Part shown: one piece after another, positions 3,734 to 44,832 of the stretch
Position numbering within the stretch: position 1 is the first letter of the stretch
Layout of the letters: each line of letters begins with the position of its first letter
Origin: a virus
Lineage: Duplodnaviria; Caudoviricetes
Length of the DNA: 64,000 nt
Strand: one strand, 5' to 3'
Virus record (IMG/VR): IMGVR_UViG_3300011116_001229
Notes under the pieces: generated by a model
The model's database searches: none
The model's input: the letters and a program-made list of their open reading frames with translations, nothing else
What the model was told of the DNA's origin: nothing
Made by a program: the position numbers and the translations under genes

Positions 3734-3780
3734 GCAGTCGTATGCGTACAAGAGCTAATTATAGAACGAATGGGCTGTCA

Positions 3781-6982: not shown

Positions 6983-7011
6983 TTGTAAATTCAATCATAA
7001 GATGTTATGAT
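6983..7011 (+). promoter_or_regulatory. sigma70-like promoter
   Basis: TTGTAA-17 nt-TATGAT with extended TG, 7 nt before ATG 7019. Confidence 0.5.
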
Positions 7012-7018
7012 TGAATAC

Positions 7019-8764: not shown

Positions 8765-8835
8765 AAAACCTAAATATTACGGTCCCTTTGTACTTTACTT
8801 CCAATGATTCTAAAATACGATTAAGGAAAAGACAC

Positions 8836-9201
8836 ATGGATAAACTTGACGAGATGTATAACCAGCAGCGAGACTTCAATTATCTCTTGAGAGATGAAAG
8901 AGGTTATCCTGACTTTCCGCTCGATCTAAAAGAAAAGAAGAATCAACAGATTCTTAAGGGGCTTGCGCATGAGTGCATGCATGAACTCTTCGAGGCTAAT
9001 CATCTACTAAAGAATAGCAAGAATCATCGAGTTACCGAAGTAAAAGAATTTGACAGAGAGTCTTACAAAGAAGAACTTGTTGATGCGCTACATTACTTCT
9101 TTGGAATTGTAATCTATAGCGGCATTTCTGCAGAAGAGCTACATGAAGCTTTCATGAAGAAGGGTGCTGTTAACGTGCAACGAGTGAAGACCGGTTATTG
9201 A
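8836..9201 (+). CDS. dimeric (all-alpha) dUTPase/dCTPase-like NTP pyrophosphatase
   Basis: 'HECMHELFEA....KN.KNHR', 'YKEELVDALHYF'; SD AAGGA before ATG 8836. Confidence 0.75.
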   Translation: MDKLDEMYNQQRDFNYLLRDERGYPDFPLDLKEKKNQQILKGLAHECMHELFEANHLLKNSKNHRVTEVKEFDRESYKEELVDALHYFFGIVIYSGISAEELHEAFMKKGAVNVQRVKTGY

Positions 9202-10145
9202 CTATGACAAAGTGGGACGACTTGCATAATGCTCTAAAAGCTCAGAAATCCTTTTCCGATTATTTTTATGACACTAATCAACTAACAAATGAGCAGAAAA
9301 TTGAAGAACTAAAGACTTTGAGCTTAGCGTTACACTCTGAGATTTCAGAGATGTGCAATGCTGTCAATTACAAAGAGCATCGCAGAGAATCTCGCGAAAC
9401 AGACTTGCAGAAGATTCTGTACAAGTCTGCTGATGCTTATCGTTATATTCTTGCTATAGCAAACCTATGGGGAATAACTGCAGATAAATTAACATCTGCC
9501 TTAGAACAAAAGGACCACTATCTGCACTATAGACATCAACTTCGTGACAAGAGATGGTGCGGAGAACCGATTGTGCTCTTTGATATTGACGACGTACTTG
9601 CTGAGTTCAGATATGAGTTCTGCAGATTTGTTACAGATCAGACTGGAATCTTCATGGATCCTAACAGCTCAGAGTACTATAACACTGTTAAGTTCAAAGA
9701 ACACGGTCTTAACAGCGAGTATTTCTTTAAAAAATTTATTGACGATCATGGATTTTTGAGATTGGACTTGAACAAGCGTTACTACGATTTGTTGACGCGT
9801 CTAAAAGCTCGAGGACACTGGGTGCAAATAGTCACTGCACGAGATGCAAGCAATCTCACGTGTTTCTATGACACTTACGCATGGCTGCATCTCAACAACA
9901 TTCCAGCAGATGATGTAGTTTTCACGCCCGAGAAATTTGCCTGGTTGGCAGGCCAAGATTTCTATAAGACAGCTCGATTATTTGCTGTTGATGATTCAGC
10001 AAAGCATGCATCTGAATACGCTAAGCATGGCGTGACTTGCGTTGTTCCAAAAAAATCTTACAATGTTGAAGTAAAAAATGTCAAGGGTGTCATCTACATC
10101 GAAGACAGCGACGATATTTTTGCTAAAATTAACACTATCCTTTAG
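9198..10145 (+). CDS. fusion: MazG/dUTPase-like domain + HAD 5'(3')-deoxyribonucleotidase
   Basis: N-half 'LALHSEISEM...NYKEHR'; C-half HAD motifs 'FDIDDVL', 'VTAR', 'K', 'AVDDS'. Confidence 0.75.
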   Translation: MTMTKWDDLHNALKAQKSFSDYFYDTNQLTNEQKIEELKTLSLALHSEISEMCNAVNYKEHRRESRETDLQKILYKSADAYRYILAIANLWGITADKLTSALEQKDHYLHYRHQLRDKRWCGEPIVLFDIDDVLAEFRYEFCRFVTDQTGIFMDPNSSEYYNTVKFKEHGLNSEYFFKKFIDDHGFLRLDLNKRYYDLLTRLKARGHWVQIVTARDASNLTCFYDTYAWLHLNNIPADDVVFTPEKFAWLAGQDFYKTARLFAVDDSAKHASEYAKHGVTCVVPKKSYNVEVKNVKGVIYIEDSDDIFAKINTIL

Positions 10146-10215: not shown

Positions 10216-11196
10216 ATGCCCATTAATAAAGACCTACAGCCGATTGAACTACCCATGGAATTAAAGTTCGGACGACCTGTTCGCACCAAGTTCCATAATA
10301 ATATTGATGCACTAAAGATTGAGCTCGTCGACCATCCTGCGCGTCAACAAGCATGGAACGTCGCTTGGCATTATGTTAAGGCAACTTGGGCAGATAGACC
10401 TGACATCTCGCCTGAGTCTGTATCGCATCGAGAACTTTCTAAAAACCTGGAAGATGTTTTCGGAGGCCGCACTCTGCCAGCGCCCATGGAATGTCTTGGC
10501 TTCACATTTAGATTAAGTGGTATGTCTTTTCAAGAGGTGACTCATATTATCAGACATCGTGCAGGAACTTTTGCTGCACAATGCACAGGCGATCGTGACC
10601 TCCGAGATGATGATGCAGTAATTCCAGAACCCGTAGAGAATTCACCTGAGTTCTTAGCGCGCTGGAAGAAGATTGTGGAAGATTCCAAGCAACTCTATGC
10701 TGATATGACTGATTCAAAGGTTGTGTCCATGATGGACGCACGTTTGATTCTACCAAAGTGCATGACGTCTTTCTACTACATGCGACTTCCTCTCAAGGAG
10801 CTAATTGGCTTCATCTATCAACGTCAGGATAGGCAGATTCAGACGTCAGCTGATAATATTCTGGCAGCACGCATGGCAGTTGAGGTGGCTAAGGTCATTC
10901 CTGAGTTCACTACGCTAGTTGATTTCAACAAGCCTGACATGCACTACATCAAGACCTTCCGCGTGAAGGAAGGTGATAAGTTCGTGTCTCGCGGAACGAA
11001 CCTCTATTGGCCGGAACCCAAGAACGACAAGTTTGAGTTCCACCCAGATGACACTATCTACCAGGCTCGCCGTGAAGAGCTCAACGGCACGCATGGTGAT
11101 GGCCCACAGCGAAAGTTTGTAGCTGCCTGGGATTCTGCAGTGTCCGAGTTTGAGAGTATTAAAAAGCAACACAATGATTGGAAGGAAGGTAAATAA
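10216..11196 (+). CDS. thyX: ThyX-like flavin-dependent thymidylate synthase (atypical signature)
   Basis: 'THIIRHR', 'DARLILP', 'FIYQR' ThyX-fold motifs; signature RHRx7C rather than RHRx7S. Confidence 0.75.
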   Translation: MPINKDLQPIELPMELKFGRPVRTKFHNNIDALKIELVDHPARQQAWNVAWHYVKATWADRPDISPESVSHRELSKNLEDVFGGRTLPAPMECLGFTFRLSGMSFQEVTHIIRHRAGTFAAQCTGDRDLRDDDAVIPEPVENSPEFLARWKKIVEDSKQLYADMTDSKVVSMMDARLILPKCMTSFYYMRLPLKELIGFIYQRQDRQIQTSADNILAARMAVEVAKVIPEFTTLVDFNKPDMHYIKTFRVKEGDKFVSRGTNLYWPEPKNDKFEFHPDDTIYQARREELNGTHGDGPQRKFVAAWDSAVSEFESIKKQHNDWKEGK

Positions 11197-11238: not shown

Positions 11239-11418
11239 ATGAAACAATCGAAGATCTCGGTCGATGAAGAGACCCATAAATTGCTGAAGATATACTGTGC
11301 TCAGCACGGTCTGATTATGAGTCAGTTCACCGCCGAGATCATTCGAGAGAGGATTGGCAATGAAAGAGAAGATCTGCGCACAATGCGAAAAGAAATTTGT
11401 GCCAAAGAATCCATTTAG
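11239..11418 (+). CDS. small ribbon-helix-helix-like DNA-binding protein
   Basis: 'KISVDEETHKLLKIYCAQHGLIMSQFTAEII' RHH pattern; SD GGAG. Confidence 0.55.
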   Translation: MKQSKISVDEETHKLLKIYCAQHGLIMSQFTAEIIRERIGNEREDLRTMRKEICAKESI

Positions 11419-12253
11419 TAATAAGTCTGGTTTCTTCTTTTGCTCGAAAGAGTGCACTTATCTTGCTCAGAAGAAGGGCGGTGTCACATATGAGCTCCGT
11501 CGAAAGAGGTCACTAGAGAAGCACGGCACCGACTTTCCAATGTCTTGCCCTGAGATAAAGAATAAGCGCAGCAACAACAACATAAAAAAGTACGGTGTTG
11601 CCAGCACGTTTGAACTTGATTCAGTCAAAGAGAAGTCAAAAAAGACTTCACGTGAGAAATATGGGGTTGATGTTTACTCACAAACAACAGAATTCAAGTC
11701 CAAGATCGAAGAGACAAATCTAAAGAGATTCGGACATAAGTCTCCGATAGAAAATCCCAACATTCTAGAACGACGACGGCAGACAATGATCGACAGATGG
11801 GGAGGTCCATCAACTTTCGAATCACCTGTTCTACGAGCTCGCGCTGAAGATACCTGTATTGAAAAGTTCGGAGTTCATAATATTGTCTTATCGCCGACGT
11901 TTATCTCTTCTTCCATGGATAAGAAACTGCTCAAATCACATGGAAAAACTTGGCAGCAGTACATCGATGACCTACCTGAATTTCAGGATTATCGAAGAAA
12001 AGTCGATCACTTTACACGCATGCAGCCGATCGAACAGCTAGCCAATCATGATAAACGTGGTGAATATCATCTCGATCACAAGTTTTCAGTCGCTGAAGGG
12101 TTTAGACAAGGTCTACCACCCGAGGTGATAGGTCACATTGTGAATCTGGAATTCATACCGGCTGCAGAAAATCTTCGAAAACAGTCAAGTTGTTCAATTG
12201 ACAAAGACGCATTACTATCAGAATACTCAACTAGAAAGGTAAATCAAAGATGA
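11360..12253 (+). CDS. putative homing endonuclease (Zn finger, KYG repeats, C-terminal HNH-like domain)
   Basis: CxxC...CxxxC, repeated 'KYGV/RFG' units, 'YHLDHKFS...NLEFIP..EN'. Confidence 0.7.
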   Translation: MKEKICAQCEKKFVPKNPFSNKSGFFFCSKECTYLAQKKGGVTYELRRKRSLEKHGTDFPMSCPEIKNKRSNNNIKKYGVASTFELDSVKEKSKKTSREKYGVDVYSQTTEFKSKIEETNLKRFGHKSPIENPNILERRRQTMIDRWGGPSTFESPVLRARAEDTCIEKFGVHNIVLSPTFISSSMDKKLLKSHGKTWQQYIDDLPEFQDYRRKVDHFTRMQPIEQLANHDKRGEYHLDHKFSVAEGFRQGLPPEVIGHIVNLEFIPAAENLRKQSSCSIDKDALLSEYSTRKVNQR

Positions 12254-12705
12254 ATCGAAAAAAGATGTATCTCGCAAGCGGATGGTTCAACCCTACACAG
12301 GAAGCAGAGCTCACGAGGCTCGAGCAGATTATGGAAGCACGTAAGGACTGGATCGATATGGCTTCACCACGTAGGATCTTCATCTGTCCACCTAATGCAT
12401 CTCGTGAAGTACAAGATGCAACCTATCAGGGTAATCTTAAACACATCCGCGAGGCTGACTTCCTCGTTGTGAACACCCGCGACAAGGATCTCGGTACGAT
12501 CATGGAATGTGGTTATGCTACAGCCTTTGACAAGCATATCATCTACTTCTGTGCAGGACTTCCCCCCGGAGCAAAATTTAATCTTATGCTTTCAAGATCG
12601 GGTGCATTCGTGGCTACTTCGTTCGAACAACTCGAAGACTACCTCGATCGGTGCAAGTCTGCAGGCGAGATGCTTTACGAACCGTACGACAAGGAAATTG
12701 AGTGA
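12250..12705 (+). CDS. nucleoside 2-deoxyribosyltransferase / nucleotide N-glycosidase family
   Basis: 'YLASGWF', 'ADFLVV', 'DLGTIMECGYA', 'FNLML'. Confidence 0.85.
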   Translation: MNRKKMYLASGWFNPTQEAELTRLEQIMEARKDWIDMASPRRIFICPPNASREVQDATYQGNLKHIREADFLVVNTRDKDLGTIMECGYATAFDKHIIYFCAGLPPGAKFNLMLSRSGAFVATSFEQLEDYLDRCKSAGEMLYEPYDKEIE

Positions 12706-15063: not shown

Positions 15064-15957
15064 ATGGAGAGTAAATGTGAAGTTTGCGGAATTAGCATAG
15101 AATCAAAACCAAGACTACGTACTTGTTCAAAAAAATGCGGTTACGTGTTGAGAAGTCGTACTAGAAATATAAAACATGAGCCTGTTGAAAAGATATGTCT
15201 CGACTGCGAGTGTAATTTTCAAGATACTTCAAAAAAGAAGTTAGTCGTTAGATGCAAACCATGCATAAACAATTCCATGGTTGCTACACGTTACGCAAGA
15301 GGAAGCTATGAGCGCTCAGAAGAGCAGAACGAGAAATTGTCTATTACGCTTAAGACAAAGTACGAATCAGGATGGAACCCTAACACTGAAGAGCATCGAG
15401 AAAAATTATCCGAGGGAATGAAGGCTCGCTGGCAAGATGGTTCAATGAGAAAGAAGTCGGTTGCAACAACGCTTGAAAAGTATGGAGTTGAGCACTGGGC
15501 GCAGTCTGAAGAAGGAAAGACAGTGCTATCACAGAGGTCAAGAGGCAGAAAATTTTCTGATGAAACTCGTAAAAATATGAGTCAAGGCGCTGCAAGGCGC
15601 ATTAGAGAGAATAATAATCATTATGAACGAGGTAATGGAGGTTTTAGAGAAGACCTCGGACACTATGTACGGAGTAACTGGGAAGCTAATTTTGCTAGAA
15701 TATTAAAAATTCAAGGAAAGTCTTACGAATACGAACCTAAGACATTTCAAATTGCTGAGGATAAAACGTATACACCCGATTTTCTTGTCGATGGTATTTT
15801 CTACGAAGTTAAAGGCTATTGGACCGAAAAATCGAAACTTAAATTAGAATCATTTGTAAAAATATATCCCGAAATAGAATTGCAAATCATCGACGGCACA
15901 AAGTACAATGAGCTTAGAGAAGCTTACCAAGATCTAATTCACTGGGAAGGCAAATAA
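15064..15957 (+). CDS. putative homing endonuclease (Zn fingers, NUMOD3-like, PD-(D/E)xK nuclease)
   Basis: CxxC pairs, 'GRKFSDETRKNMS', 'RSNWEANFAR..YEYEP..YTPDF..EVKG'; SD GGAGG. Confidence 0.75.
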   Translation: MESKCEVCGISIESKPRLRTCSKKCGYVLRSRTRNIKHEPVEKICLDCECNFQDTSKKKLVVRCKPCINNSMVATRYARGSYERSEEQNEKLSITLKTKYESGWNPNTEEHREKLSEGMKARWQDGSMRKKSVATTLEKYGVEHWAQSEEGKTVLSQRSRGRKFSDETRKNMSQGAARRIRENNNHYERGNGGFREDLGHYVRSNWEANFARILKIQGKSYEYEPKTFQIAEDKTYTPDFLVDGIFYEVKGYWTEKSKLKLESFVKIYPEIELQIIDGTKYNELREAYQDLIHWEGK

Positions 15958-15960
15958 TAA

Positions 15961-16056
15961 ATGAACAGCACAAAGGAGAAGAGCTACTTGAAGCTTGAGT
16001 CCGTGCGACCTCCTACTCGGTTTGTGGGGTTTCACGCGCACTCAGGCTTCTCGTAA
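15961..16056 (+). CDS. dnaE: dnaE upstream mini-ORF encoding PHP motif I (…RPPTRFVGFHAHSGFS*)
   Basis: Manual translation of 15961-16056; alternative TTG 15988 is 9 nt after AAGGAG; ends TCG-TAA; missed by ORF track. Confidence 0.8.
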   Translation: MNSTKEKSYLKLESVRPPTRFVGFHAHSGFS

Positions 16057-16063
16057 AGTTACG

Positions 16064-19000
16064 ACATTTGACGGTTTGGGTTACCCTGCAGATCACATTG
16101 CCTTTGTCACCTCTGAGTCACAAGGCATGGATGCCTGGGCACTGACAGATCACGGCAATGGCAACGGACTTGCACACGCACATTCTGCTGCCAAGAAGAT
16201 TCAGAAGAAAGGTGTGAAGTATCGACAGCTCTACGGCGTGGAGTTCTACTTCGTTCCTTCACTTTCGCAGTGGCGTATCGATTACGAGGCCCACAAGCAA
16301 TCAGTCAAGGACGCGAAGTCTGCAGCTGAGGCTGAGAAGAAAGCAAAGATTCGAACTGACATCGACGCTGACGAGGCAGCAGAGGAAGAGGAGGCCGGTG
16401 GCCACGTCGTGGAGGATGAGGCAGAGACGAAGGCCGACGACTACAAGGAGAAGCCTGACTGGCAGCGTCGTTACCACCTCGTGGCAGTGGCGCAGTCAGC
16501 TGAGGGGCTCGCGAACATCAACCGTCTCGTCAAGGCATCATTTAAAGACGGATTCTACCGTTATCCACGCATCGACTTCGACCTCCTCAGAAAGTGGGGC
16601 AAAGGGATCGTGTGGTCGAGCGCCTGCCTCGGCGGAACAATGGCGGGTACAATTCTACGAGGCGTAGCACATAATAGAACTTCTGAGCAAATTATTGCTG
16701 ATCTTGAAGTTCTCACAGGTCAGTTCGTCGAAGCAGTCGGCCAAGAGAACTTCTTCCTCGAACTGCAATTCAATAAGCTCGAGAAACAACACACCGTAAA
16801 CAAGTACCTCATCGACCTGTCTCGAAAGACCGGTGTGAAGCTGCTGGCCACATGCGACTCTCACTATCCAGATCCCTCCAAGTGGCAGGCCCGTGAGCTC
16901 TACAAGAAGCTGGGCTGGATGGGCACGAAGCTAGACGAGCAAGCACTACCGAAGTTCGAGGACCTGAAGTGCGAGCTGTATCCCAAGAACGCTACCCAGA
17001 TGTGGGACGAGTTCAAGAAGTCCTACGAACAGTACGACTTCTACAAGGGTTCCGAGGAGGAAGTTCGTGACGCGATCGAGCGGACTCACGACGTCGCTTG
17101 GCAGCATTGCGAGGACACTTGGGTCGATGTGAAACCAAAGCTGCCCAAGGTCGACACACCAGAAAAAACAGCATTCCAGCAGCTCACTGAGCTTGTTAAA
17201 GAAGGTCTTACCCGCGAAGGTCTTGCTGATAAGCCTGAGTATGTCGATCGAGCTAAATATGAGCTCGGAGACATCAAATATCTGAATTGTGCTTCTTACT
17301 TCATTACGATGTATAAAGTGTTCAATCTTGCGAAGGAGAAGACGCTCTTTGGAAGCGGCCGCGGGAGTGGTGCGGGATCGCTCGTCAACTTCCTGTTAGG
17401 CATCACGCAGATCGATCCGATACCATACGGTTTGCTTTGGAGCAGATTTTTAGGACGACACCGAGTGAGCTTTCCGGATATCGATACAGACGCAGGTGAC
17501 AGGGATGTCCTTATCGATGCGGCACGAACTCTGTTCGGCGATGACGCCGTGATCCCGGTGTCCAACTTCAACACCCTGAAGCTCAAGTCCCTCGTCAAGG
17601 ACATCGCCAAGATCTACGGCGTGCCCTTCGAGGAGGTGAACGAGATGACCGGCCCTCTCCAGGACGAGGTGATGCCGCTGGCTCGAGACGAGGACCAGGA
17701 GAAGTCGGTCTTCGTGCTGAAGCATGAGGACTGCATGAAGTACTCGCCGAAGTACACGGCCTTCATGGAGAAGTATCCTGACGTTGCTGCACACGTCGAG
17801 ACACTGTTCATGCAGAACAGGTCCATCGGAAGGCATGCAGGAGGCGTACTCTTAGCAGATCCTGAAGATCTTGCTGCAAACATGCCTATCATTGGCGTCA
17901 GAGGCGAGCTGCAGACACCGTGGACAGAGGGTATGAACTTCCGCAATCTGGAGGATAACGGCTTCTTGAAGTTTGACTTCCTAGGTCTCACGCTTCTCAA
18001 AGATGTCGAGAACTGCATTAGACGCATTCTCATCAAGAATGGCAATCTTGATCCTACCTTCCTGGACATTAGAGGCTTCTTCGACAAGCATCTAAACTGT
18101 CGATACGTGAAGCAGGACGATCCTGCTGTGTGGAAGCATGTCTACCAGGACGGCTCGTTTGTGTCAGTCTTCCAGATGACTGCAGAGGGTGCTCGGAAGT
18201 TCTGCAAGGCAGTTAAACCGACGAAGATCGAAGACCTCACAGCTATTACAGCGATCTACCGCCCTGGGCCTCTCAAAGCAAACGTGCACAACCTCTTTGT
18301 CGAAGCTAGAAAGCTTGACAAGATCAATTACCCACACCCAATCATCGAGCAAGTCCTTGGACCTACGAAAAATTTCGTTGTGTATCAGGAACAATTTATG
18401 TTGTTAGCAGAAAAACTAGGTGGCTTTACACCTGGTGAAGCTGATCAGCTGCGCAAGACGCTAGTTAAGAAGTCGCTTGACACGCTGGACAAAAAGTCAT
18501 CAGAGAAGGAGCTTGCTAAGCAGAAGTTTATTGAGGGTGCTCAGCGACTTCACGGAGTTCCTCCAGAAGTGACCGAGCCTCTTTGGCAAACAATTGACAA
18601 CATGAGCGTCTATTGTTTCAATAAATCCCACAGTTTAGCATATGCTATCGATTCCTACTATGCAGCATGGCTTCATACACACTACGAGAAAGAGTGGCTG
18701 GCAACTGCACTTCAATCAGCTTCCAGCAACCCAAAAGAACTTGCGAAGACGATCTCCGAGATCAAGGCGTTAGGCTTCAAGTTCTCGAAGCACGACATCA
18801 ACTACTCGGGCAAGGAGTGGCAGTTCTCTGAGGAGGCCGATGCTTTCGTGCCGCCTCTCGGTTCAGTGAAGGGAATTGGATCTGCAGCAGTTGAAGAGAT
18901 CATGGCGAACAGGCCCTACAAGGATCTAGCTACTATGCTCTATGACGACGCAGGTGAGTGGCGACACAGCAAGGTGAACAAGACAGCTCTGTCAGCTCTT

Positions 19001-19594
19001 TGCAAGATTGATGCGCTTTCTTCTTTGGAAGATTTTAATCTAGGTAGAGTTAATAATCATAAGCAACTTCTAATGGCTTTGACAGATGACAAGAATTACG
19101 AGATGCTTCGACGTGGTCTCTACGGCCTGACTGCATCGCAGCTGAAGAAGAAAGCTAAGGCCGGCGAAAAGATCGAAGCTTTCTTGGATCTAATGCTTAC
19201 ATCGCTAACAAATGTCGAAGATTGGTCTCGAGAAGAAAAGATTGAGATGTGTCAAGATTTAACACAATCTGTGGACACTGACCTGCTGTTTCCTCCCGCA
19301 GTCATGGAAAAGATTGCAGAAAAAAATGTTCCAAAACTTCATGATGTACCAGCAGGGGCTGAGGGAATAGGATGGTTCTGCGTTGCTGAAATTCAAATGA
19401 AGAAAACTAAGAATGGTAAAGTTTTCTATCGAATTAAAGCAACAGACGATGAACATCGAACAGCTTGGGTTAGAGCATGGGGAACTCCAAAGGAAGAAAT
19501 TCGTCCATACACACTTTGGGTTGCTCAAGTTCAAAATGATCCAAACTGGGGATTCTCAACGTCTGTGTATAAGATGCGTGAACTAGTTGGGTGA
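16064..19594 (+). CDS. dnaE: DNA polymerase III alpha subunit, main ORF (continues mini-ORF after 10-nt gap, +1 frame)
   Basis: 'TFDG', 'ALTDHGN', 'GVEFY', 'GRGSGAGS', 'FPDIDTD', 'KFDFLGL', 'FNKSHS'. Confidence 0.95.
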   Translation, partial: TFDGLGYPADHIAFVTSESQGMDAWALTDHGNGNGLAHAHSAAKKIQKKGVKYRQLYGVEFYFVPSLSQWRIDYEAHKQSVKDAKSAAEAEKKAKIRTDIDADEAAEEEEAGGHVVEDEAETKADDYKEKPDWQRRYHLVAVAQSAEGLANINRLVKASFKDGFYRYPRIDFDLLRKWGKGIVWSSACLGGTMAGTILRGVAHNRTSEQIIADLEVLTGQFVEAVGQENFFLELQFNKLEKQHTVNKYLIDLSRKTGVKLLATCDSHYPDPSKWQARELYKKLGWMGTKLDEQALPKFEDLKCELYPKNATQMWDEFKKSYEQYDFYKGSEEEVRDAIERTHDVAWQHCEDTWVDVKPKLPKVDTPEKTAFQQLTELVKEGLTREGLADKPEYVDRAKYELGDIKYLNCASYFITMYKVFNLAKEKTLFGSGRGSGAGSLVNFLLGITQIDPIPYGLLWSRFLGRHRVSFPDIDTDAGDRDVLIDAARTLFGDDAVIPVSNFNTLKLKSLVKDIAKIYGVPFEEVNEMTGPLQDEVMPLARDEDQEKSVFVLKHEDCMKYSPKYTAFMEKYPDVAAHVETLFMQNRSIGRHAGGVLLADPEDLAANMPIIGVRGELQTPWTEGMNFRNLEDNGFLKFDFLGLTLLKDVENCIRRILIKNGNLDPTFLDIRGFFDKHLNCRYVKQDDPAVWKHVYQDGSFVSVFQMTAEGARKFCKAVKPTKIEDLTAITAIYRPGPLKANVHNLFVEARKLDKINYPHPIIEQVLGPTKNFVVYQEQFMLLAEKLGGFTPGEADQLRKTLVKKSLDTLDKKSSEKELAKQKFIEGAQRLHGVPPEVTEPLWQTIDNMSVYCFNKSHSLAYAIDSYYAAWLHTHYEKEWLATALQSASSNPKELAKTISEIKALGFKFSKHDINYSGKEWQFSEEADAFVPPLGSVKGIGSAAVEEIMANRPYKDLATMLYDDAGEWRHSKVNKTALSALCKIDALSSLEDFNLGRVNNHKQLLMALTDDKNYEMLRRGLYGLTASQLKKKAKAGEKIEAFLDLMLTSLTNVEDWSREEKIEMCQDLTQSVDTDLLFPPAVMEKIAEKNVPKLHDVPAGAEGIGWFCVAEIQMKKTKNGKVFYRIKATDDEHRTAWVRAWGTPKEEIRPYTLWVAQVQNDPNWGFSTSVYKMRELVG

Positions 19595-19601
19595 GACTAC
19601 A

Positions 19602-20513
19602 ATGAAGACACAACTTCCTATCAGGTATATAATCGTCGAAGGACCGGACCTTGCAGGTAAATCTACGTTTATTCAGCAACTGCATAAGGTGACAGGTTTT
19701 AAATACAATATTCAGGATAGATCATGTCTTTCTATGTTGTGCTACGCGAGACAGTATAGTCGGGATATTGATCTACAGCGTCAATTCTTGCATGAAGAGT
19801 TGTCTGATCTTAATAACTTTTTTATTGTGCTCCTACCATCAGAAGAAGTTTTGCTAGATCGACTTGCGTATAGAGGCGATGAGTTTCAGAATTCATCATC
19901 CGTTGTGACTCTTAGAAATCTATTTGTTGAAGAGACTGAAAGTGTTGAGCACAAACCGAATGTTCTCGTGATTAGAAATATTGCTTCAGCAGAACAGCTA
20001 GCTGAGTATGTCAGTCAGCGTTTGCGCTCATATGAAAGTCCTACAATTGAAAAAGCTGGTGCGATGACTTCACGCTGGATTACAAGTGATCAACATCCTG
20101 AAATGCAACTAAAGCTTAAGCTGCACATCAATCCAGCACATGATGATGCTGAAATACTCAAACATCCGCATGAAGGTGAATATTATTCTGGAATATTGGA
20201 AAGATGTTGCTCAATTATTCAAGATGAATTGGATGGAAAGAATCCGTACAACAAACCACAAGATCTCACGTCAAGACGGTTCTTCTATTCAAGTGATTCT
20301 TGCATCTCATCTATTCACTTTTTGCCAAGAGACGGCAGTTTAAAAGTTCTTTGCACGCTCCGCAGTACTGACGTTAACAAGAATGGATCGATTGACACGA
20401 GATTTTTAGCTCACTTGTCAGCTTTCGTTGCTAGGAAATTTAAATGGCCAACATCTAACATTGCGCTTTTCATCAACTTTAATAGTGCACATGTAAGAAA
20501 AGATTTAGAGTGA
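19602..20513 (+). CDS. fusion: dNMP kinase + thymidylate-synthase/dCMP-hydroxymethylase-like domain
   Basis: P-loop 'EGPDLAGKST'; C-terminal C-x19-RSTD-x7-D spacing identical to TS C146/R166/N177 with Asp at the N177 position. Confidence 0.75.
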   Translation: MKTQLPIRYIIVEGPDLAGKSTFIQQLHKVTGFKYNIQDRSCLSMLCYARQYSRDIDLQRQFLHEELSDLNNFFIVLLPSEEVLLDRLAYRGDEFQNSSSVVTLRNLFVEETESVEHKPNVLVIRNIASAEQLAEYVSQRLRSYESPTIEKAGAMTSRWITSDQHPEMQLKLKLHINPAHDDAEILKHPHEGEYYSGILERCCSIIQDELDGKNPYNKPQDLTSRRFFYSSDSCISSIHFLPRDGSLKVLCTLRSTDVNKNGSIDTRFLAHLSAFVARKFKWPTSNIALFINFNSAHVRKDLE

Positions 20514-20529
20514 CATTATAATTGCTGAC

Positions 20530-21525
20530 ATGATTAAGATACTGATAACTGGCGCTGCAGGTTTGCTGGGAAATAATCTATCACGACATTTTATTAGCAA
20601 GGGATTCAGGGTTGTCGGAGTAGATGACTTTAGCGGTGGATTTAAAGATTTAGTGCATGGAAATGTGCATCTGTATGAATGTAATCTGACGGACGATAAA
20701 AAAGTTTCTCAGATCTTTATGACAGAAAAACCCGACTATGTGTTTCACTTTGCAGCATATGCAGCTGTTGGTTTGAGTCCATTTATACGCAGGCACAACT
20801 ATATGAATAATGTTGTTGCTTCTGCAAATGTTATTAATGCGTGTGTCAATTATGGAGTTCAAAAGCTAATATTTGCAAGCTCAATGGACGTATACGGCAC
20901 GCAAGATCCACCGTTTGTTGAGTCCCAGCGACCTATGCCAGAAGATCCGTATGGCATTGCAAAATTTACAATAGAGCAGGACATACATGCTGCAGGTCGC
21001 CTTTTTGGCCTGAGATACAGCATCGTAAGGCCCCACAATGTCTTTGGTGTCTACCAGAATATTTGGGACAAATATAGGAATGTAATAGGCATCTGGATTA
21101 GGCAGAGTTTATCTGGACAACCCCTGACAATCTATGGTGAAGGCAAGCAGATGCGCTCTTTCTCCGACATTGAATTTTACATGGAGCCTTTTGAGAAACT
21201 ATTGGAGCTAGGTGATGGTGAGATTTACAATATTGGTGCTGATAGCTACGTCTCTATTTCCGAAGCTGCAAGTAGATTTCAGTCTGTTGCAAAGCATAAT
21301 GGTCTTGACACTTCGGTTATTCACCTCGAACCTCGAGATGAAGTAATTTTTGCTTATTGCGATCATTCAAAAGCCAAGAGTCAGCTAGGTTTTAAAGACG
21401 GCACACATTTTGAAAATCTAGTTAACAAAATGATTATATGGGCGAAAAGTCAACCACAAAGACCTGTTAAGTTAATGGATTATGAAATAGAAAAGGGAAT
21501 GTACTCTTATTGGAAGAAGAGTTAA
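20530..21525 (+). CDS. NAD-dependent epimerase/dehydratase (extended SDR)
   Basis: 'TGAAGLLG', 'HFAAY', 'PYGIAK', 'RPHNVFG'. Confidence 0.88.
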   Translation: MIKILITGAAGLLGNNLSRHFISKGFRVVGVDDFSGGFKDLVHGNVHLYECNLTDDKKVSQIFMTEKPDYVFHFAAYAAVGLSPFIRRHNYMNNVVASANVINACVNYGVQKLIFASSMDVYGTQDPPFVESQRPMPEDPYGIAKFTIEQDIHAAGRLFGLRYSIVRPHNVFGVYQNIWDKYRNVIGIWIRQSLSGQPLTIYGEGKQMRSFSDIEFYMEPFEKLLELGDGEIYNIGADSYVSISEAASRFQSVAKHNGLDTSVIHLEPRDEVIFAYCDHSKAKSQLGFKDGTHFENLVNKMIIWAKSQPQRPVKLMDYEIEKGMYSYWKKS

Positions 21526-21551
21526 TATGACTGCGTACAAGGAGAGCAGAA

Positions 21552-22505
21552 ATGATTAAGGCGCTTATTACTGGGGGAGCTGGTTTTATTGGAAGCAATT
21601 TATGTAATACACTACATAAAATGGGATGGGATATTGACATTGTTGACAATATGTCTAATGGTCATGTTGAATTTTTGCATGTTGATCTTCGATCAGAAAA
21701 ACTTTGGGTTGAAGATTTTGCTGCTTATGAAGTTCTTGAAAAGATTGGTAGCAAAGAATATGATTACGTCTTTCATTTGGCTGCAAATCCAAGAGTAACT
21801 TACTCTATTGAAAATCCTGTTGAAACACATGAAACTAACGTTTTGAAAACGTTAATGCTGCTAGACGCATGTAAAGGCAATATTAAGCGCTTAGTTTTTG
21901 CTGCATCTTCATCTACTTATGGAAATGCCGATGTACTCCCAACGACCGAGGATTTGCCAGACAGCCCAAAATCACCGTATGCTTTGCAGAAAGCAATCGT
22001 TGAAAAATACTTAAAACTTTATAGCGAGCTCTACGGTTTAGATTCTGCCTGTCTTAGGTTCTTTAATGTTTTTGGACCGAACCAGCTTGGTGATTCCCCC
22101 TACTCTACGGCAATTTGTGCATGGTTGACAGCAATTAAAAGAGATAAATCAATGAGATCAGACGGCGATGGATCTCAATCACGCGACATGTGTTACGTTG
22201 ATAATGTTGTTGATTGCTTGATTAAAGCTGCAATTGCTGAGAAAAATTTAAACGCTGAAGTTTTAAACGTTGGTGTTGGTGAAAGCGTTTCTAACGCCGA
22301 GATTCTTAAATATCTTAAAAAGAAGTATCCACAAGCAGTCTCACATGACGCTCCGTGGAGACCAGGCGATGTCATGCATACTAAGTCTGATATCTCAAAG
22401 GCAAAGAGGCTTATCGGATATGAACCAAAAGTTGATGTCTGGCAGGGCTTAGACAAAACTATCGTATGGTTTGAGGAAAACTGGTCCTGGCTTAAGAATA
22501 TGTGA
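21552..22505 (+). CDS. NAD-dependent epimerase/dehydratase (extended SDR, UDP-glucose 4-epimerase-like)
   Basis: 'TGGAGFIGS', 'HLAA', 'SSSTYG', 'PYALQK', 'RFFNVFGP', 'RPGDV'. Confidence 0.9.
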   Translation: MIKALITGGAGFIGSNLCNTLHKMGWDIDIVDNMSNGHVEFLHVDLRSEKLWVEDFAAYEVLEKIGSKEYDYVFHLAANPRVTYSIENPVETHETNVLKTLMLLDACKGNIKRLVFAASSSTYGNADVLPTTEDLPDSPKSPYALQKAIVEKYLKLYSELYGLDSACLRFFNVFGPNQLGDSPYSTAICAWLTAIKRDKSMRSDGDGSQSRDMCYVDNVVDCLIKAAIAEKNLNAEVLNVGVGESVSNAEILKYLKKKYPQAVSHDAPWRPGDVMHTKSDISKAKRLIGYEPKVDVWQGLDKTIVWFEENWSWLKNM

Positions 22506-22514
22506 GGATTGATC

Positions 22515-23084
22515 ATGACTATTGTACCTGAGTTTATTGTTTACACCGGCCCGATGTTTTCTTCAAAAACATCAAGTCTTCTATCTTCACTTGAAAGATA
22601 CAAATATCAGCACAAGAGAATTGTGCTCTATAAGCCTGAAATTGACGACAGATATAGCATTTCCGAAGTTGTCACACATGGCGGTCTTAAGATGCCTGCG
22701 TTTTGTGTTAAGACGGGCGCTGATATAATTGAGCACTTAGCAACTCTTAATGAAAATCCACACGTAATCGCAGTAGATGAGGCATTCATGATTGCGGGTG
22801 TTGCAGATACACTTATTTGGCTGTATAGAAATGGTTACACTGTTGTTGTATCATCTTTGGACTTGTCAGCTGCAGGCACTGTTTTTCATGAGATTGAAAA
22901 GATGATGATCTGGGCGACTAGAGTTGAAAAATGCACCGCTGTTTGTACTGTCTGCGGTAGAGATGCTCATTACACTCATAAAAAGCAGACTGGGGGAGAA
23001 GAGATTGAAGTTGGTGGATCGGAACTTTACGAGCCAAGATGTTTCTTACACCATCTGCATATTGATAAGAGGCTAACGGACTGA
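22515..23084 (+). CDS. tdk: thymidine kinase
   Basis: 'GPMFSSKT', 'VDEAF', 'CTVCG', 'GGSELYEPRC'. Confidence 0.9.
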   Translation: MTIVPEFIVYTGPMFSSKTSSLLSSLERYKYQHKRIVLYKPEIDDRYSISEVVTHGGLKMPAFCVKTGADIIEHLATLNENPHVIAVDEAFMIAGVADTLIWLYRNGYTVVVSSLDLSAAGTVFHEIEKMMIWATRVEKCTAVCTVCGRDAHYTHKKQTGGEEIEVGGSELYEPRCFLHHLHIDKRLTD

Positions 23085-23085
23085 C

Positions 23086-23511
23086 ATGGACAGACCCGCA
23101 TGGCCTGAAACGTGGATGAAGATTGCTTGGAATATCTCAGACAGATCTTATGATCCTCGACTAAAAGTTGGCGCTATAATTGTTTCAGACGATAATACTC
23201 GATTGCTTTCACTAGGCTATAACGGAAATTATCGAGGCGGTCCAAATGAGCCTGAGAGTGATGTGCCCGGACAAAGCGGAATGATTCACGCAGAAGTAAA
23301 TGCATTAATTAAATGTGATTATAATTTCAATAGAAAAAAGATCATGTACCTAACACATTCGCCGTGTGTATCATGCGCCAAGCTTATTGTAAATGCCGAC
23401 ATTGCCAGTGTAATTTATGACGTGGAGTACAGGGATCTTTTGGGCTTGCAGATACTTACAAATTCAGGCATTCATGTAAATAGACTGGGTGACTTGATAA
23501 TTAGATCTTGA
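23086..23511 (+). CDS. dCMP deaminase (ComEB-like)
   Basis: 'HAEVNA' and 'PCVSC' zinc motifs, 'VGA', 'GYNG'. Confidence 0.9.
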   Translation: MDRPAWPETWMKIAWNISDRSYDPRLKVGAIIVSDDNTRLLSLGYNGNYRGGPNEPESDVPGQSGMIHAEVNALIKCDYNFNRKKIMYLTHSPCVSCAKLIVNADIASVIYDVEYRDLLGLQILTNSGIHVNRLGDLIIRS

Positions 23512-23522
23512 GAATCTGTGCA

Positions 23523-23816
23523 ATGAAGAAAAAAGATAATGACTTTATCAGACTCATGCGTGAAGAGTGGAATGCAAAAATGTCCGCGCTTCAAGAAGAA
23601 GTTGAGCTTATGTTTAATACCAAGGTCGATAATGATAAAAAGACTGTCATTAGCCCCGGCTTAAAGATAAGAAGCAAAGATGAGCAAATTCTTTATAAAG
23701 TAGCCGCCGTGAGCATTAGAGGAGTCGATTTAAGACCACCAGATGCACCTGAAGATGGCTCTAAAGACTTCTTTGTTGACAAGGACACCCTGGAGAAAAA
23801 CTATGAGCTCGATTAA
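23523..23816 (+). CDS. hypothetical protein
   Basis: ATAATTA 23497-23503; 'LMREE/LQEE' motifs. Confidence 0.6.
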   Translation: MKKKDNDFIRLMREEWNAKMSALQEEVELMFNTKVDNDKKTVISPGLKIRSKDEQILYKVAAVSIRGVDLRPPDAPEDGSKDFFVDKDTLEKNYELD

Positions 23817-24534
23817 GAAAAGCGATGAAATTCTTGGCATTGATGTCAATAGCATTATAAAAAATACTTTTAAAGAACAGTCAAAGACTTCTTCTGGCGG
23901 TCTAAAACAGGCGCTTGATGAAGCTTTTGTGCATGAGCCAAAACAGTTTAAGCAAGTTACTGAATTCTTGTCTGAGAAGGCAAAATCTGCACATATTGAA
24001 CTCTATAAGGGCTACATTGAGTCTTTTAATAAGGTGTCAGCAAAACTAGATTCAGTCAATAGATCTGAAGCAAATTCTAGACACGCCGATTACAGATCAT
24101 TAAAACTTGACGAAGCGTATAACTTGAATGGTACATGGCTACACGAACTTCACTTTGCTAATGGTTTTGATCCACATTCAGAAATAGTAATGGATTCAAT
24201 GTCTTATCTTCGACTGCAGAGAGACTTTGGAACTTTTGAAGATTGGCAGAGAGATTTCATTGCCGCCGGCATGAGCGCAGGTAATGGCTGGGTTGTTACA
24301 GGTTTTAATATGTTCTTAAAGAAGTATGTTAATACAATTGTTAGCCATCACAGTGGCGATATTCAAATGGGTCTCTATCCAGTAATTGTGGTTGACATGT
24401 GGGAACATGCTTATTTTAGAGACTATCTTACAGACAAGAAGTCTTATTTGATTGCACAGATGAAAGAGCTGAATTGGACAGTCATTGAGGAGCGCTTCAA
24501 GAAGGCTGAAGCCATAGCTCAGGTGTTAAAATGA
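23803..24534 (+). CDS. Fe/Mn superoxide dismutase family protein with N-terminal extension
   Basis: 'AHIELY', 'LHELHF', 'FGTFEDW', 'DMWEHAYF'. Confidence 0.85.
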   Translation: MSSIKKSDEILGIDVNSIIKNTFKEQSKTSSGGLKQALDEAFVHEPKQFKQVTEFLSEKAKSAHIELYKGYIESFNKVSAKLDSVNRSEANSRHADYRSLKLDEAYNLNGTWLHELHFANGFDPHSEIVMDSMSYLRLQRDFGTFEDWQRDFIAAGMSAGNGWVVTGFNMFLKKYVNTIVSHHSGDIQMGLYPVIVVDMWEHAYFRDYLTDKKSYLIAQMKELNWTVIEERFKKAEAIAQVLK

Positions 24535-44800: not shown

Positions 44801-44832
44801 AGTATTTATTGTACTTATTGTTAGGTGTTTGA

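What the first reader, a model, noticed from the sequence alone, without database searches (positions are those of the whole stretch)
19602..20513. Kinase-thymidylate-synthase fusion with a cytosine-specific Asp: possible new cytosine hypermodification pathway
Seen: N-terminal P-loop dNMP kinase fused to a short TS-fold domain. Cys (codon 20301), Arg-Ser (20361) and Asp (20394) are spaced exactly like E. coli TS C146/R166/N177. Established: Asn at that site selects dUMP, whereas Asp (T4 dCMP hydroxymethylase D179) selects dCMP. The gene directly follows dnaE and precedes two NDP-sugar SDR enzymes, TK and dCMP deaminase. A ThyX-like gene elsewhere could supply dTMP. Inference: the domain modifies dCMP, the fused kinase feeds it into the dNTP pool, and the base may later be glycosylated.
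Basis: partly seen in the sequence, partly recalled or inferred. Interest (0 to 1): 0.8.

Follow-up and report, generated by a model that had tools for sequence, protein, structure and literature searches.

The report
Kinase fused to minimal thymidylate-synthase-like domain
An uncultured freshwater giant phage encodes, right after its DNA polymerase, one protein that joins a nucleotide kinase to a stripped-down thymidylate-synthase-like enzyme built to read cytosine, so the phage probably makes a chemically altered C for its DNA, though which one is unknown.

Summary
ORF 19602-20513 encodes 303 aa. Residues 1-145 are a trimmed TMPK/YorR-like P-loop kinase. Residues 146-303 are a thymidylate-synthase (TS) fold that no Pfam, NCBIfam or single-sequence search detects. 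Structure search and profile comparison do detect it: Z 8.5-10.6 to seven TS-family chains, and hhalign 96.6%, E 5.5e-10. Cys234, Arg254-Ser255 and Asp265 align with E. coli C146, R166-S167 and N177.

Asp265 is invariant in 54 of 54 diverse family members and Cys234 is kept in 51 of 54. The nearest solved relatives by sequence profile are the flavin/O2-dependent dCMP 5-hydroxylase AfhB, then T4 dCMP hydroxymethylase. No ThyA reached E 10.

The folate-binding parts are missing or variable, and the D169 position flips between Asp and Asn at least 7-8 times in the family tree. This argues against folate chemistry.

The best reading is a bifunctional dCMP C5-modifying enzyme plus dNMP kinase, most likely of the recently described 5-hydroxy-dCMP synthase type. 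The product is unproven.

The gene follows DnaE in 80 of 81 loci of one clade of uncultured aquatic jumbo phages. The glycosylation link is not supported.

First readers of this scan noted the same fusion on another genome. I rate it a new variant of a known kind, interest 0.62.

The parts
19602..20513 (+). Kinase/TS-like fusion gene (KTS), 303 aa, P0001
   Evidence: Translation. There are 280 word-index homologs and 229 exhaustive representatives, nearly all about 300 aa and fused.
19590..19595 (+). GGTGAG Shine-Dalgarno-like box overlapping the dnaE stop codon (19592-19594), 7 nt before the ATG. This suggests translational coupling to dnaE.
   Evidence: Sequence read directly. In relative L001 the dnaE stop and the KTS start overlap.
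19602..20036 (+). N-terminal TMPK/YorR-like P-loop dNMP kinase domain (aa 1-145). It has the P-loop E13-G-P-D16-x-x-G19-K20-S, D39-R40-S41, and lid residues R87/R91-G-D93. Only 18 residues separate the P-loop from the DR motif.
   Evidence: D16, G19, K20, R40 and D93 are invariant in 54 of 54.
20037..20510 (+). C-terminal minimal TS-fold domain (aa 146-303)
20274..20279 (+). Arg225-Arg226, equivalent to E. coli R126-R127. In TS these bind the phosphate of the partner subunit's nucleotide.
   Evidence: hhalign. Present in 52 of 54. In the predicted homodimer they touch R254/S255/N294-H297 of the other copy.
20301..20303 (+). Cys234, equivalent to the TS nucleophile C146
   Evidence: hhalign. 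Present in 51 of 54.
20361..20372 (+). Arg254-Ser255-Thr256-Asp257, equivalent to R166-S167-C168-D169. Position 257 is Asp here and Asn in 27 of 54 relatives.
20394..20396 (+). Asp265, equivalent to N177 (Asp179 in T4 dCMP hydroxymethylase). This is the base-discriminating residue.
   Evidence: hhalign. Present in 54 of 54.
20490..20492 (+). His297, equivalent to TS H207. The protein ends six residues later, so the TS C-terminal folate-closing segment is absent.
   Evidence: plus the translation.
15995..19594 (+). DnaE-type DNA polymerase III alpha, immediately upstream. Conserved partner in 80 of 81 loci.
20530..22505 (+). Two extended-SDR NDP-sugar epimerase/dehydratase genes (context; a role in the pathway is not shown)
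   Evidence: An SDR lies within 10 kb in 64 of 81 loci.
22509..23511 (+). Thymidine kinase and dCMP deaminase (conserved downstream context)
   Evidence: Found in 68 and 66 of 81 loci.
8788..10145 (+). An all-alpha NTP pyrophosphatase that is locally similar to T4 gp56 dCTPase/dUTPase, and a second such domain fused to an NT5C/HAD nucleotidase. These are candidate suppliers of dCMP.
10216..11196 (+). Divergent ThyX paralog (context). A second candidate pyrimidine-modifying enzyme.

Best explanation
KTS is a bifunctional nucleotide-pool enzyme. The C-terminal domain is a dimeric, minimal member of the thymidylate-synthase superfamily. It binds a pyrimidine deoxynucleoside 5'-monophosphate through R225'/R226' (from the partner subunit), R254 and S255. 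It reads the base as cytosine through the invariant Asp265, and Cys234 attacks C6 to make C5 nucleophilic. Almost all folate-contacting parts of TS and dCMP hydroxymethylase are deleted or variable, and the D169 position swaps freely between Asp and Asn. The electrophile is therefore probably not methylene-tetrahydrofolate. The most likely chemistry is O2-dependent 5-hydroxylation with a loosely bound flavin, as in AfhB of phage HY126 and gp48 of RB69, giving 5-hydroxy-dCMP. The fused TMPK-like kinase then phosphorylates the modified dNMP to the diphosphate. Host NDP kinase finishes the job, and the co-translated DnaE replicase incorporates it. Shown here: the fold, the homology, the conserved catalytic set, the predicted TS-like dimer, the conserved fusion and the synteny. 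Inferred: the substrate dCMP, the non-folate chemistry, the hydroxyl product, the kinase acceptor, and incorporation into DNA. My confidence is about 0.5 for 'dCMP C5 modification plus phosphorylation' and about 0.3 for the hydroxyl product specifically.
For: - **Fold:** the seven best of 48,161 chains are all TS-family members (Z 8.5-10.6), then the scores drop to 5.4. Foldseek ranks AfhB entries 9iqu and 9iqc first.
- **Homology:** the profile of 51 diverse C-domains against ThyA + T4 gp42 + RB69 gp48 gives 96.6%, E 5.5e-10, and aligns the SRR, C, RS-D, D and H motifs.
- **Nearest relatives:** against all PDB sequences the profile hits only AfhB (E 4e-4) and T4 dCMP hydroxymethylase (E 2.2e-3) among TS-family entries. 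No ThyA reached E 10. The hhalign scores are gp48 45.8, gp42 45.1 and ThyA 33.5.
- **Conservation:** D265 in 54/54, C234 in 51/54, R225/R226/R254 in 52/54, S255 in 53/54.
- **Position 257 (D169):** Asn 27, Asp 22, with at least 7-8 switches forced by well-supported branches. Asn here is the published 5hodCMP-synthase signature (PMC13326640). Asp169 is critical for folate binding in TS (PMC6400193).
- **T4 dCH folate contacts:** I81/W82/V85 fall in a segment absent here. Y218 and R220 correspond to R299 and D301. The essential D145 corresponds to the variable S231.
- **Homodimer prediction:** score 0.54 against a best control of 0.25. The mark was reached by 20 of 30 proteins solved as pairs of one chain and by 1 of 23 solved as single chains. 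The runs share at least 64% of contacts and the partner pLDDT is at least 79. R225/R226 contact R254/S255 of the other copy. The pass may reflect likeness to solved TS dimers.
- **Kinase link:** a YorR/Tmk-like nucleotide kinase is encoded beside the 5hodCMP synthase in DLP3, RB69 and RL38J1 (Table 1 of PMC13326640; RB69 map). The P-loop of P0001 matches RB69 gp45.
- **Pathway context:** a T4 gp56-like NTP pyrophosphatase lies upstream. Canonical ThyX is present and no ThyA or DHFR was found in five large relatives, one of them 100% complete.
Against: - This protein itself has Asp257 and Ser231, not the Asn and Glu/Asp seen in the characterised 5hodCMP synthases.
- No flavin reductase, DNA glycosyltransferase or other downstream modification gene was recognised next to it.
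- The equivalents of TS E58 and R21 could not be placed, because the N-terminal half aligns unreliably.
- A 158-aa domain may be too small to hold a flavin on its own.
- The operon partners TK and dCMP deaminase serve dTTP synthesis.
- No nucleoside analysis or native long-read data exist for this phage. All holders are assembled contigs.
- The conserved synteny reflects a single phage lineage, so it is weak evidence for functional linkage.
Confidence: 0.5

Rival explanations
1. KTS is a folate-dependent dCMP hydroxymethylase or methylase fused to its kinase. This would be a compact version of T4 gp42 plus gp1, making 5-hydroxymethyl-dCDP or 5-methyl-dCDP.
For: Asp257 (D169) is retained in this protein and its close relatives. 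T4 dCH is the second-best PDB sequence hit, and its hhalign score nearly ties with gp48. The T4-like pathway logic fits, with a gp56-like pyrophosphatase and a dCMP deaminase present.
Against: The segment carrying T4 dCH residues I81/W82/V85 (E. coli W80/W83) and the C-terminal Y218/R220 contacts are absent or replaced. The position of the essential D145 is Ser here and variable in the family (D19, S17, N6, Q5). The D169 position is Asn in half the family and switches repeatedly between sister sequences. No DHFR was found in five relatives, which argues against reductive methylation.
Confidence: 0.12
2. The TS-like domain no longer catalyses C5 chemistry. It serves as the acceptor-nucleotide-binding or allosteric sensing module of a trimmed dNMP kinase, so the protein is only a kinase for dCMP, dTMP or a modified dNMP.
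For: The kinase lacks most of the base-binding region: 18 residues separate the P-loop from the DR motif, against about 75 in TMPK by my recollection (and my own knowledge). Both halves are minimal, and the whole-protein model is rigid (pTM 0.89). The 100%-complete relative G001 has no other PF02223-type kinase at E 0.01 or better. Three of the 54 family members have lost the Cys.
Against: The full catalytic set is kept across sequences only 24-50% identical: Cys 51/54, His297 51/54, Glu209 52/54, Tyr216 38/54. Such conservation is unexpected for a mere binding module.
Confidence: 0.15
3. KTS is the phage's thymidylate synthase-thymidylate kinase: dUMP to dTMP to dTDP. This would complete a dTTP operon with TK and dCMP deaminase.
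For: The gene order KTS-TK-dCMP deaminase is conserved. The P-loop is TMPK-like. Viral fusions of a full-length TS domain with a thymidylate kinase exist as a 437-aa Atlas cluster.
Against: Asp is invariant at the N177 position (54/54), which in TS selects dCMP over dUMP (PMC13326640; PMC6400193). Every large relative already has a canonical ThyX. The folate-binding elements are missing. No ThyA sequence reached E 10 in the PDB profile search. No DHFR was found.
Confidence: 0.08

Closest known systems
AfhB of E. coli phage HY126 (PDB 9iqu, 9iqc), RB69 gp48 and DLP3 gp80: flavin/O2-dependent dCMP 5-hydroxylase (5hodCMP synthase)
   Same: TS fold. Cys nucleophile. Asp at the N177 position. The TS C-terminal tail is lost. 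It is the best Foldseek hit and the best PDB profile hit. A YorR/Tmk-like kinase belongs to the same gene set. Asn at the D169 position occurs in 27 of 54 members of the KTS family.
   Different: 158 aa against 217-238 aa. About 17% identity. This protein has Asp257 and Ser231 instead of Asn and Glu. The kinase is fused rather than neighbouring. No arabinose or glycosyltransferase genes lie nearby. The cofactor and product are untested.
T4 gp42 dCMP hydroxymethylase with gp1 dNMP kinase and gp56 dCTPase
   Same: The dCMP-specific Asp. The R-R / C / R-S-x-D core. The pathway logic of dCTPase, then C5 modification of dCMP, then kinase, with dCMP deaminase and TK alongside.
   Different: The THF-contacting residues I81, W82, V85, Y218 and R220 and the catalytic D145 are absent or not conserved. 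The two activities sit in one polypeptide. The replicase is DnaE, not a family-B polymerase.
ThyA thymidylate synthase (PF00303)
   Same: The fold (Z up to 10.6). A predicted dimer with a shared phosphate site. Cys, Arg-Ser and His.
   Different: Asp instead of Asn177. About 100 residues shorter. No PF00303 match at any threshold tried. The folate-binding segment and the C-terminus are missing.
B. subtilis SPbeta YorR (PDB 2axp, 3kb2) and thymidylate kinases
   Same: The N-terminal domain. Profile E 5.5e-11 to YorR. Foldseek TM 0.64 by target. An E-G-x-D-x-x-G-K-[ST] P-loop, a D-R-x motif and an Arg-rich lid.
   Different: About 30 residues shorter than YorR between the P-loop and the DR motif. 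Below the Pfam PF02223 cut-off (16.6 against 27 bits).
437-aa viral 'Thymidylate kinase/Thymidylate synthase domain' cluster (ESM Atlas) and standalone mini-TS proteins such as AFDB A0A0F9MSN6 (187 aa)
   Same: The same kinase-then-TS order in the 437-aa cluster (feature score 0.90, TM 0.52). The standalone protein has a similarly reduced TS core (TM 0.70 and 0.60).
   Different: The 437-aa cluster carries a full-length PF00303 domain. The standalone protein has no kinase. As far as the tools show, none of them is characterised.

Membership tests
Thymidylate synthase superfamily (ThyA / dCMP hydroxymethylase / MilA / AfhB) | TS alpha/beta fold | tested here: met
   VIA-align wide: the top seven chains are all TS-family members, Z 8.5-10.6, 136-144 of 158 residues aligned, and the next hit is Z 5.4. 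Foldseek probability 1.00.
Thymidylate synthase superfamily (ThyA / dCMP hydroxymethylase / MilA / AfhB) | Catalytic Cys nucleophile at the C146 position, with R166-S167 and the R126-R127 pair | tested here: met
   hhalign 96.6%, E 5.5e-10, aligns C234, R254-S255 and R225-R226. They are conserved in 51-53 of 54.
Thymidylate synthase superfamily (ThyA / dCMP hydroxymethylase / MilA / AfhB) | Obligate homodimer in which the Arg pair reaches the partner's active site | tested here: met
   This is a prediction only. Score 0.54 against a best control of 0.25. The mark was reached by 20 of 30 solved one-chain pairs and 1 of 23 single chains. The runs share at least 64% of contacts and the pLDDT is at least 79. 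R225/R226 touch R254/S255 of the other copy. The pass may come from likeness to solved TS dimers.
Thymidylate synthase superfamily (ThyA / dCMP hydroxymethylase / MilA / AfhB) | Match to the Pfam model PF00303 | tested here: not met
   No hit for P0001 at E 0.01 or better, and none for any of 33 C-domains at E 10 or better.
Thymidylate synthase superfamily (ThyA / dCMP hydroxymethylase / MilA / AfhB) | Conserved Glu (E58) and first phosphate-binding Arg (R21) | tested here: inconclusive
   The N-terminal half aligns unreliably even in global mode. The invariant E191 and E209 are candidates for E58.
5-hydroxy-dCMP synthase (AfhB / RB69 gp48 type) | Asp at the N177 position (cytosine specificity) | tested here: met
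   D265, 54 of 54.
5-hydroxy-dCMP synthase (AfhB / RB69 gp48 type) | Asn at the D169 position, the published diagnostic residue | tested here: not met
   This protein has Asp257. The family has Asn 27 and Asp 22 of 54, with at least 7-8 switches on the tree. The diagnostic comes from PMC13326640.
5-hydroxy-dCMP synthase (AfhB / RB69 gp48 type) | Acidic residue at the L143 position | tested here: not met
   Ser231 here. The family has D19, S17, N6 and Q5. The neighbouring position 232 is Asp here and in 30 of 54.
5-hydroxy-dCMP synthase (AfhB / RB69 gp48 type) | Flavin cofactor and O2-derived hydroxyl | not testable with these tools
   This needs purified protein, UV-vis or HPLC of the cofactor, and 18O2 labelling.
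5-hydroxy-dCMP synthase (AfhB / RB69 gp48 type) | Companion DNA glycosyltransferases and a sugar-donor pathway in the same cluster | tested here: inconclusive
   No GT family was found among the window ORFs scanned, and two large unknown ORFs are not GT-like. Relatives carry GT1/GT2 genes more than 100 kb away, and none was found in G004. Phage DNA glycosyltransferases are often invisible to Pfam.
T4-type folate-dependent dCMP hydroxymethylase | THF-contacting residues (I81, W82, V85, Y218, R220) and catalytic D145 | tested here: not met
   The region between the long helix and the S-R-R motif is only about 13 residues. Y218 and R220 align to R299 and D301, and the protein ends at 303. D145 aligns to the variable S231.
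Thymidylate kinase / YorR-like dNMP kinase (N-terminal domain) | P-loop G-x-x-x-x-G-K-[ST] with the TMPK-type Asp, a D-R-x motif and an Arg-rich lid | tested here: met
   E13-G-P-D16-L-A-G19-K20-S21, D39-R40-S41, and R87...R91-G-D93. D16, G19, K20, R40 and D93 are invariant in 54 of 54. The assignment of these motifs to TMPK rests on my own knowledge.
Thymidylate kinase / YorR-like dNMP kinase (N-terminal domain) | Pfam PF02223 gathering score and a complete NMP-base-binding region | tested here: not met
   16.6 bits against a cut-off of 27. Only 18 residues lie between the P-loop and the DR motif.

The most novel reading that the evidence does not exclude
The minimal TS domain may represent a third cofactor regime of the thymidylate-synthase superfamily, neither folate nor the AfhB-type flavin. 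One example would be a bare tetrahydropterin/O2 hydroperoxide, recycled by the pterin-4a-carbinolamine dehydratase that is conserved a few kb downstream. Another would be an unknown electrophile. In that case a whole clade of widespread freshwater and marine jumbo phages would replace dC with a cytosine derivative that has not yet been chemically described, made and phosphorylated by a single polypeptide coupled to the DnaE replicase.
Probability: 0.12. Interest if true: 0.85.

Novelty: new variant of a known kind. Interest (0 to 1): 0.62.

Why it matters
TS homologs are the entry point of almost every known pyrimidine hypermodification in phage DNA. This family is invisible to Pfam, NCBIfam and routine annotation. 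Yet it follows DnaE in 80 of 81 loci of a clade of uncultured jumbo phages, with contigs up to 284 kb. DNA nearly identical to this window's stretch is held in lake, river, estuary and other freshwater metagenomes of nine studies, and a 46%-identical relative sits on marine contigs.

If the domain is active, modified cytosine could be common in environmental phage DNA. That would affect restriction and CRISPR evasion, library preparation and long-read base calling. The family would also define the smallest catalytic TS core and show the modifying enzyme and its kinase as one protein, which confirms the functional pairing seen only as gene neighbours in RB69, DLP3 and RL38J1. It is directly testable with the published E. 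coli expression and LC-MS assay.

Tried and rejected
- **Single-sequence searches** of P0001 found no TS relative in Pfam, NCBIfam or PDB sequences. The 33-sequence C-domain profile also failed. Only the 51-sequence profile and structure search worked.
- **Phage collection:** tblastn of P0001 against 50,697 records gave no match. The best DnaE relative among cultured phages is 29% identical, so there is no cultured model.
- **Whole genome:** none is held for this window.
- **Distant family members:** context look-ups for three of them gave only contigs of 1.6-3.2 kb.
- **Bridging proteins:** a word-index search with the C-domain profile found only the same fused family and no standalone bridge.
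- **N-terminal half of the domain:** global hhalign was unreliable, so the E58 and R21 equivalents stay unassigned.
- **Palindrome avoidance:** no 4-mer or 6-mer palindrome is depleted in the 64-kb window, whether it contains C/G or not. This is compatible with protected DNA but does not discriminate.
- **Sequencing runs:** no RNA holder is listed, and all 20 DNA holders are assembled contigs. Neither expression nor base-modification signals could be examined, and read laying was not used.
- **Large unknown ORFs as hidden glycosyltransferases:** 31052-32242 is DUF6267/nucleotidyltransferase-like and 33298-34467 has no confident fold.
- **PurA-like gene as a Z-base PurZ:** it scores 282 bits to PurA and 120 to PurZ, both below their cut-offs.
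- **Literature:** the He et al. paper on AfhB is not in the held library, so flavin-contact residues could not be compared.
- **Kinase domain versus RB69 gp45:** they share only the P-loop.
Full report
**1. What is there**

The window is part of an uncultured phage genome. It has about 40% GC, nearly all genes on one strand, many homing endonucleases, and genes for GroEL, PrkA/SpoVR/DUF444, DnaE and nucleotide metabolism.

ORF 19602-20513 translates to 303 aa, stored as P0001. Its ATG lies 7 nt after the dnaE stop codon, and a GGTGAG box overlaps that stop.

**2. N-terminal domain (aa 1-145)**

- PHROG 761 'thymidylate kinase' matches at E 5.3e-11.
- Pfam Thymidylate_kin scores only 16.6 bits against a cut-off of 27.
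- A 33-sequence family profile hits the SPbeta prophage protein YorR (2axp, 3kb2) at E 5.5e-11, followed by thymidylate kinases.
- Foldseek on the whole model also finds YorR (TM 0.64 by target) and deoxynucleoside kinases.
- The P-loop is E-G-P-D-L-A-G-K-S. An Asp at that P-loop position, the D-R-S motif and the R...R-G-D lid are, from my own knowledge of the family, the TMPK pattern.
- D16, G19, K20, R40 and D93 are invariant in 54 of 54 diverse members.
- Only 18 residues separate the P-loop from the DR motif, so most of the usual base-binding region is missing.

**3. C-terminal domain (aa 146-303)**

Sequence methods with one sequence or a shallow profile see nothing.

The AlphaFold models are confident: pLDDT 93.6 for the whole protein with pTM 0.89, and 93.1 for the domain alone.

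- *Exhaustive structural comparison.* Against 48,161 PDB representatives the seven best hits are all TS-family members. They are Brucella and Burkholderia ThyA, the 9iqc flavin monooxygenase, plant DHFR-TS, MilA, Elizabethkingia ThyA and T4 dCMP hydroxymethylase. They score Z 8.5-10.6 with 136-144 of 158 residues aligned, and the next hit is Z 5.4.
- *Foldseek.* It ranks the phage HY126 dCMP hydroxylase AfhB (9iqu, 9iqc) first. BFVD and AlphaFold DB searches also return only TS/dCMP-hydroxymethylase-like proteins, including a 187-aa standalone mini-TS.
- *Profile-profile comparison.* A profile of 51 diverse C-domains (A5) against E. coli ThyA + T4 gp42 + RB69 gp48 gives 96.6% probability and E 5.5e-10.

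That comparison gives an ungapped register through the catalytic core:

| KTS | E. coli ThyA |
|---|---|
| S224-R225-R226 | S125-R126-R127 |
| C234 | C146 |
| R254-S255 | R166-S167 |
| D257 | D169 |
| D265 | N177 |
| H297 | H207 |

**4. Which branch of the superfamily**

- Against all 177,635 distinct PDB sequences, the A5 profile hits, among TS-family entries, only AfhB (E 4e-4) and T4 dCMP hydroxymethylase (E 2.2e-3). The D179N mutant of the latter scores lower. None of the many ThyA entries reaches E 10.
- The hhalign scores are 45.8 for RB69 gp48, 45.1 for T4 gp42 and 33.5 for ThyA.
- Across 54 representatives that are 24-53% identical to P0001, Asp265 is invariant. Cys234 is kept in 51, R225, R226 and R254 in 52, S255 in 53, H297 in 51 and E209 in 52.
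- Asp at this position selects dCMP in T4 dCH and in TS N177D mutants (PMC13326640; PMC6400193).

The domain is most simply read as an active, cytosine-specific member.

**5. Which chemistry**

Lee et al. 2026 (PMC13326640) and the 9iqu/9iqc structures define a new branch of TS homologs that hydroxylate dCMP at C5 with O2 and a loosely bound flavin. Its signature is N177D, L143E and, as the diagnostic, D169N.

In the KTS family the D169 position is Asn in 27 and Asp in 22 of 54. A maximum-likelihood tree shows at least 7-8 Asp/Asn switches forced by well-supported branches, several of them between sister sequences. The residue is therefore interchangeable within one orthologous family.

[quoted passage not shown] Further points against folate use:

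- The residues that hold THF in T4 dCH are I81, W82 and V85 on a segment between helix B and Tyr96, plus Y218 and R220 after the conserved His. Here they have no counterpart. The long helix is followed by only about 13 residues before S-R-R, Y218 and R220 align with R299 and D301, and the chain ends at 303.
- D145 of T4 dCH, whose D145N mutant is inactive, aligns with a variable position (Ser here; D19, S17, N6, Q5 in the family).
- No DHFR and no ThyA were found in five large relatives, one of them 100% complete.

I conclude that folate-dependent methylene transfer is unlikely, and that AfhB-like oxygen chemistry is the best available model. The caveat is that this particular protein carries Asp257 and Ser231, so it fails the published diagnostic.

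**6. Quaternary structure**

Two copies of the domain are predicted to pair. The score is 0.54 against a best control of 0.25. The mark was reached by 20 of 30 proteins solved as pairs of one chain and by 1 of 23 solved as single chains. The runs share at least 64% of their contacts, and the partner pLDDT is at least 79.

The interface runs along the beta-sheet, and R225/R226 of one copy touch R254, S255 and N294-H297 of the other. That is the TS arrangement. Because TS dimers are solved, the pass shows likeness and is not independent proof.

**7. The fusion makes sense**

In the three characterised 5-hydroxy-C systems, a YorR/Tmk-like 'nucleotide kinase' is encoded beside the synthase: DLP3 gp78 (best hit YorR 3kb2), RB69 gp45 and RL38J1 gp214 (Table 1 of PMC13326640; RB69 map). 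P0001 shares its P-loop with RB69 gp45.

An ESM Atlas cluster of 437-aa viral proteins combines a thymidylate-kinase domain with a full-length PF00303 domain in the same order. KTS therefore looks like a reduced, fused version of a pairing that recurs in phages.

**8. Distribution and context**

- The family has 280 word-index hits and 229 representatives at 50% identity. Nearly all are about 300 aa, and all known taxa are viral.
- In 80 IMG/VR loci plus the window, KTS follows DnaE in 80 of 81. TK (68 loci), dCMP deaminase (66), an SDR enzyme (64) and a Sod_Fe_C-like protein (58) lie within the 10-kb flanks, usually downstream.
- Contigs reach 284 kb.
- All members belong to one broad lineage, so synteny is weak evidence of function. 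Some subclades have no SDR beside KTS.
- Upstream in the window lie an all-alpha NTP pyrophosphatase with local similarity to T4 gp56 (E 2e-7), a second such domain fused to an NT5C nucleotidase, a divergent ThyX paralog and a nucleoside-deoxyribosyltransferase-family protein.
- Each of five large relatives has both a canonical ThyX (129-174 bits) and the divergent one (66-69 bits). dTMP supply therefore does not need KTS.
- A separate PF02223 kinase over the Pfam cut-off was found in only one of the five relatives. In some relatives the KTS kinase may therefore also serve dTMP.

**9. Glycosylation**

No glycosyltransferase was recognised in the window. In relatives the GT1/GT2 genes form clusters more than 100 kb from KTS, and none was found in an 87%-complete genome. 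Earlier first-reader notes place a large glycan cluster next to tail genes in this genome (unchecked). The link from KTS to DNA glycosylation is therefore not supported, although phage DNA glycosyltransferases can escape Pfam.

**10. Where the phage lives**

DNA nearly identical to this stretch is held by 20 runs from nine studies of lake, river, estuary and other freshwater metagenomes. All are kept as contigs, so no modification signal could be read. There is no palindrome avoidance in the window.

**11. Verdict**

It is overtaken in part by the 2025-26 discovery of 5-hydroxy-dCMP synthases, and it is unsupported on glycosylation.

The family is an unannotated, strongly reduced, kinase-fused branch of the TS superfamily, and its product must be determined experimentally. 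First readers of this scan noted the same fusion independently on another genome.

Noticed in passing
window 10216-11196 (+): A divergent ThyX paralog of 326 aa. It scores 59 bits to Pfam Thy1 and 33 bits to TIGR02170 (cut-off 88), and it keeps an RHR motif followed by a changed Ser/Gln region. Each of five large relatives has this paralog near DnaE as well as a canonical ThyX elsewhere. It is a second candidate pyrimidine-modifying enzyme.
   Followed up: partly
window 15900-18300 (inside dnaE, 15995-19594): The first two thirds of dnaE run at 48-57% GC, against about 40% for the rest of the window. This also produces many spurious antisense ORFs. It may reflect recent acquisition or strong codon constraint.
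   Followed up: no
window 55559-56566 (-): A short (335 aa) adenylosuccinate-synthetase homolog. It scores 282 bits to PurA and 120 bits to the PurZ (2-aminoadenine) model, both below their cut-offs, so it is not a clear PurZ. A GMP reductase/IMPDH-like gene lies at 7007-8110.
   Followed up: partly
window 28438-29564 (+): A carbon-nitrogen hydrolase gene overlaps a pterin-4a-carbinolamine dehydratase homolog. The pair is conserved in relatives (L003 and the P0079 contig). No pterin-dependent hydroxylase was recognised nearby.
   Followed up: partly
window 23743-24534 (+): A 263-aa protein that matches only the C-terminal domain of Fe/Mn superoxide dismutase. It is conserved downstream of dCMP deaminase in 58 of 81 loci of the clade.
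   Followed up: no
window 42866-47303 (-): A complete PrkA / SpoVR / DUF444 cassette (the bacterial yeaG-yeaH-ycgB type stress module) in a phage. A GroEL-type chaperonin lies at 49552-51186.
   Followed up: no
window 3742-4305, 11354-12253, 15064-15957, 41969-42781 (-), 48320-49096: Five homing-endonuclease-like genes (HNH, DUF7487, endonuclease-I-like, and two GIY-YIG+NUMOD3) are scattered among replication and nucleotide-metabolism genes. One sits between ThyX-like and NDT, and one directly before dnaE.
   Followed up: no
window 12250-12705 (+): A nucleoside 2-deoxyribosyltransferase-family protein, which could be a dNMP N-glycosidase. It is conserved upstream of DnaE in 37 of 81 loci, often next to the ThyX paralog.
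   Followed up: no
window 31052-32242 (+): A 396-aa protein of the viral DUF6267 group. Its Atlas structural neighbours often carry a CTP_transf_like nucleotidyltransferase domain and distantly resemble RNA ligases.
   Followed up: partly
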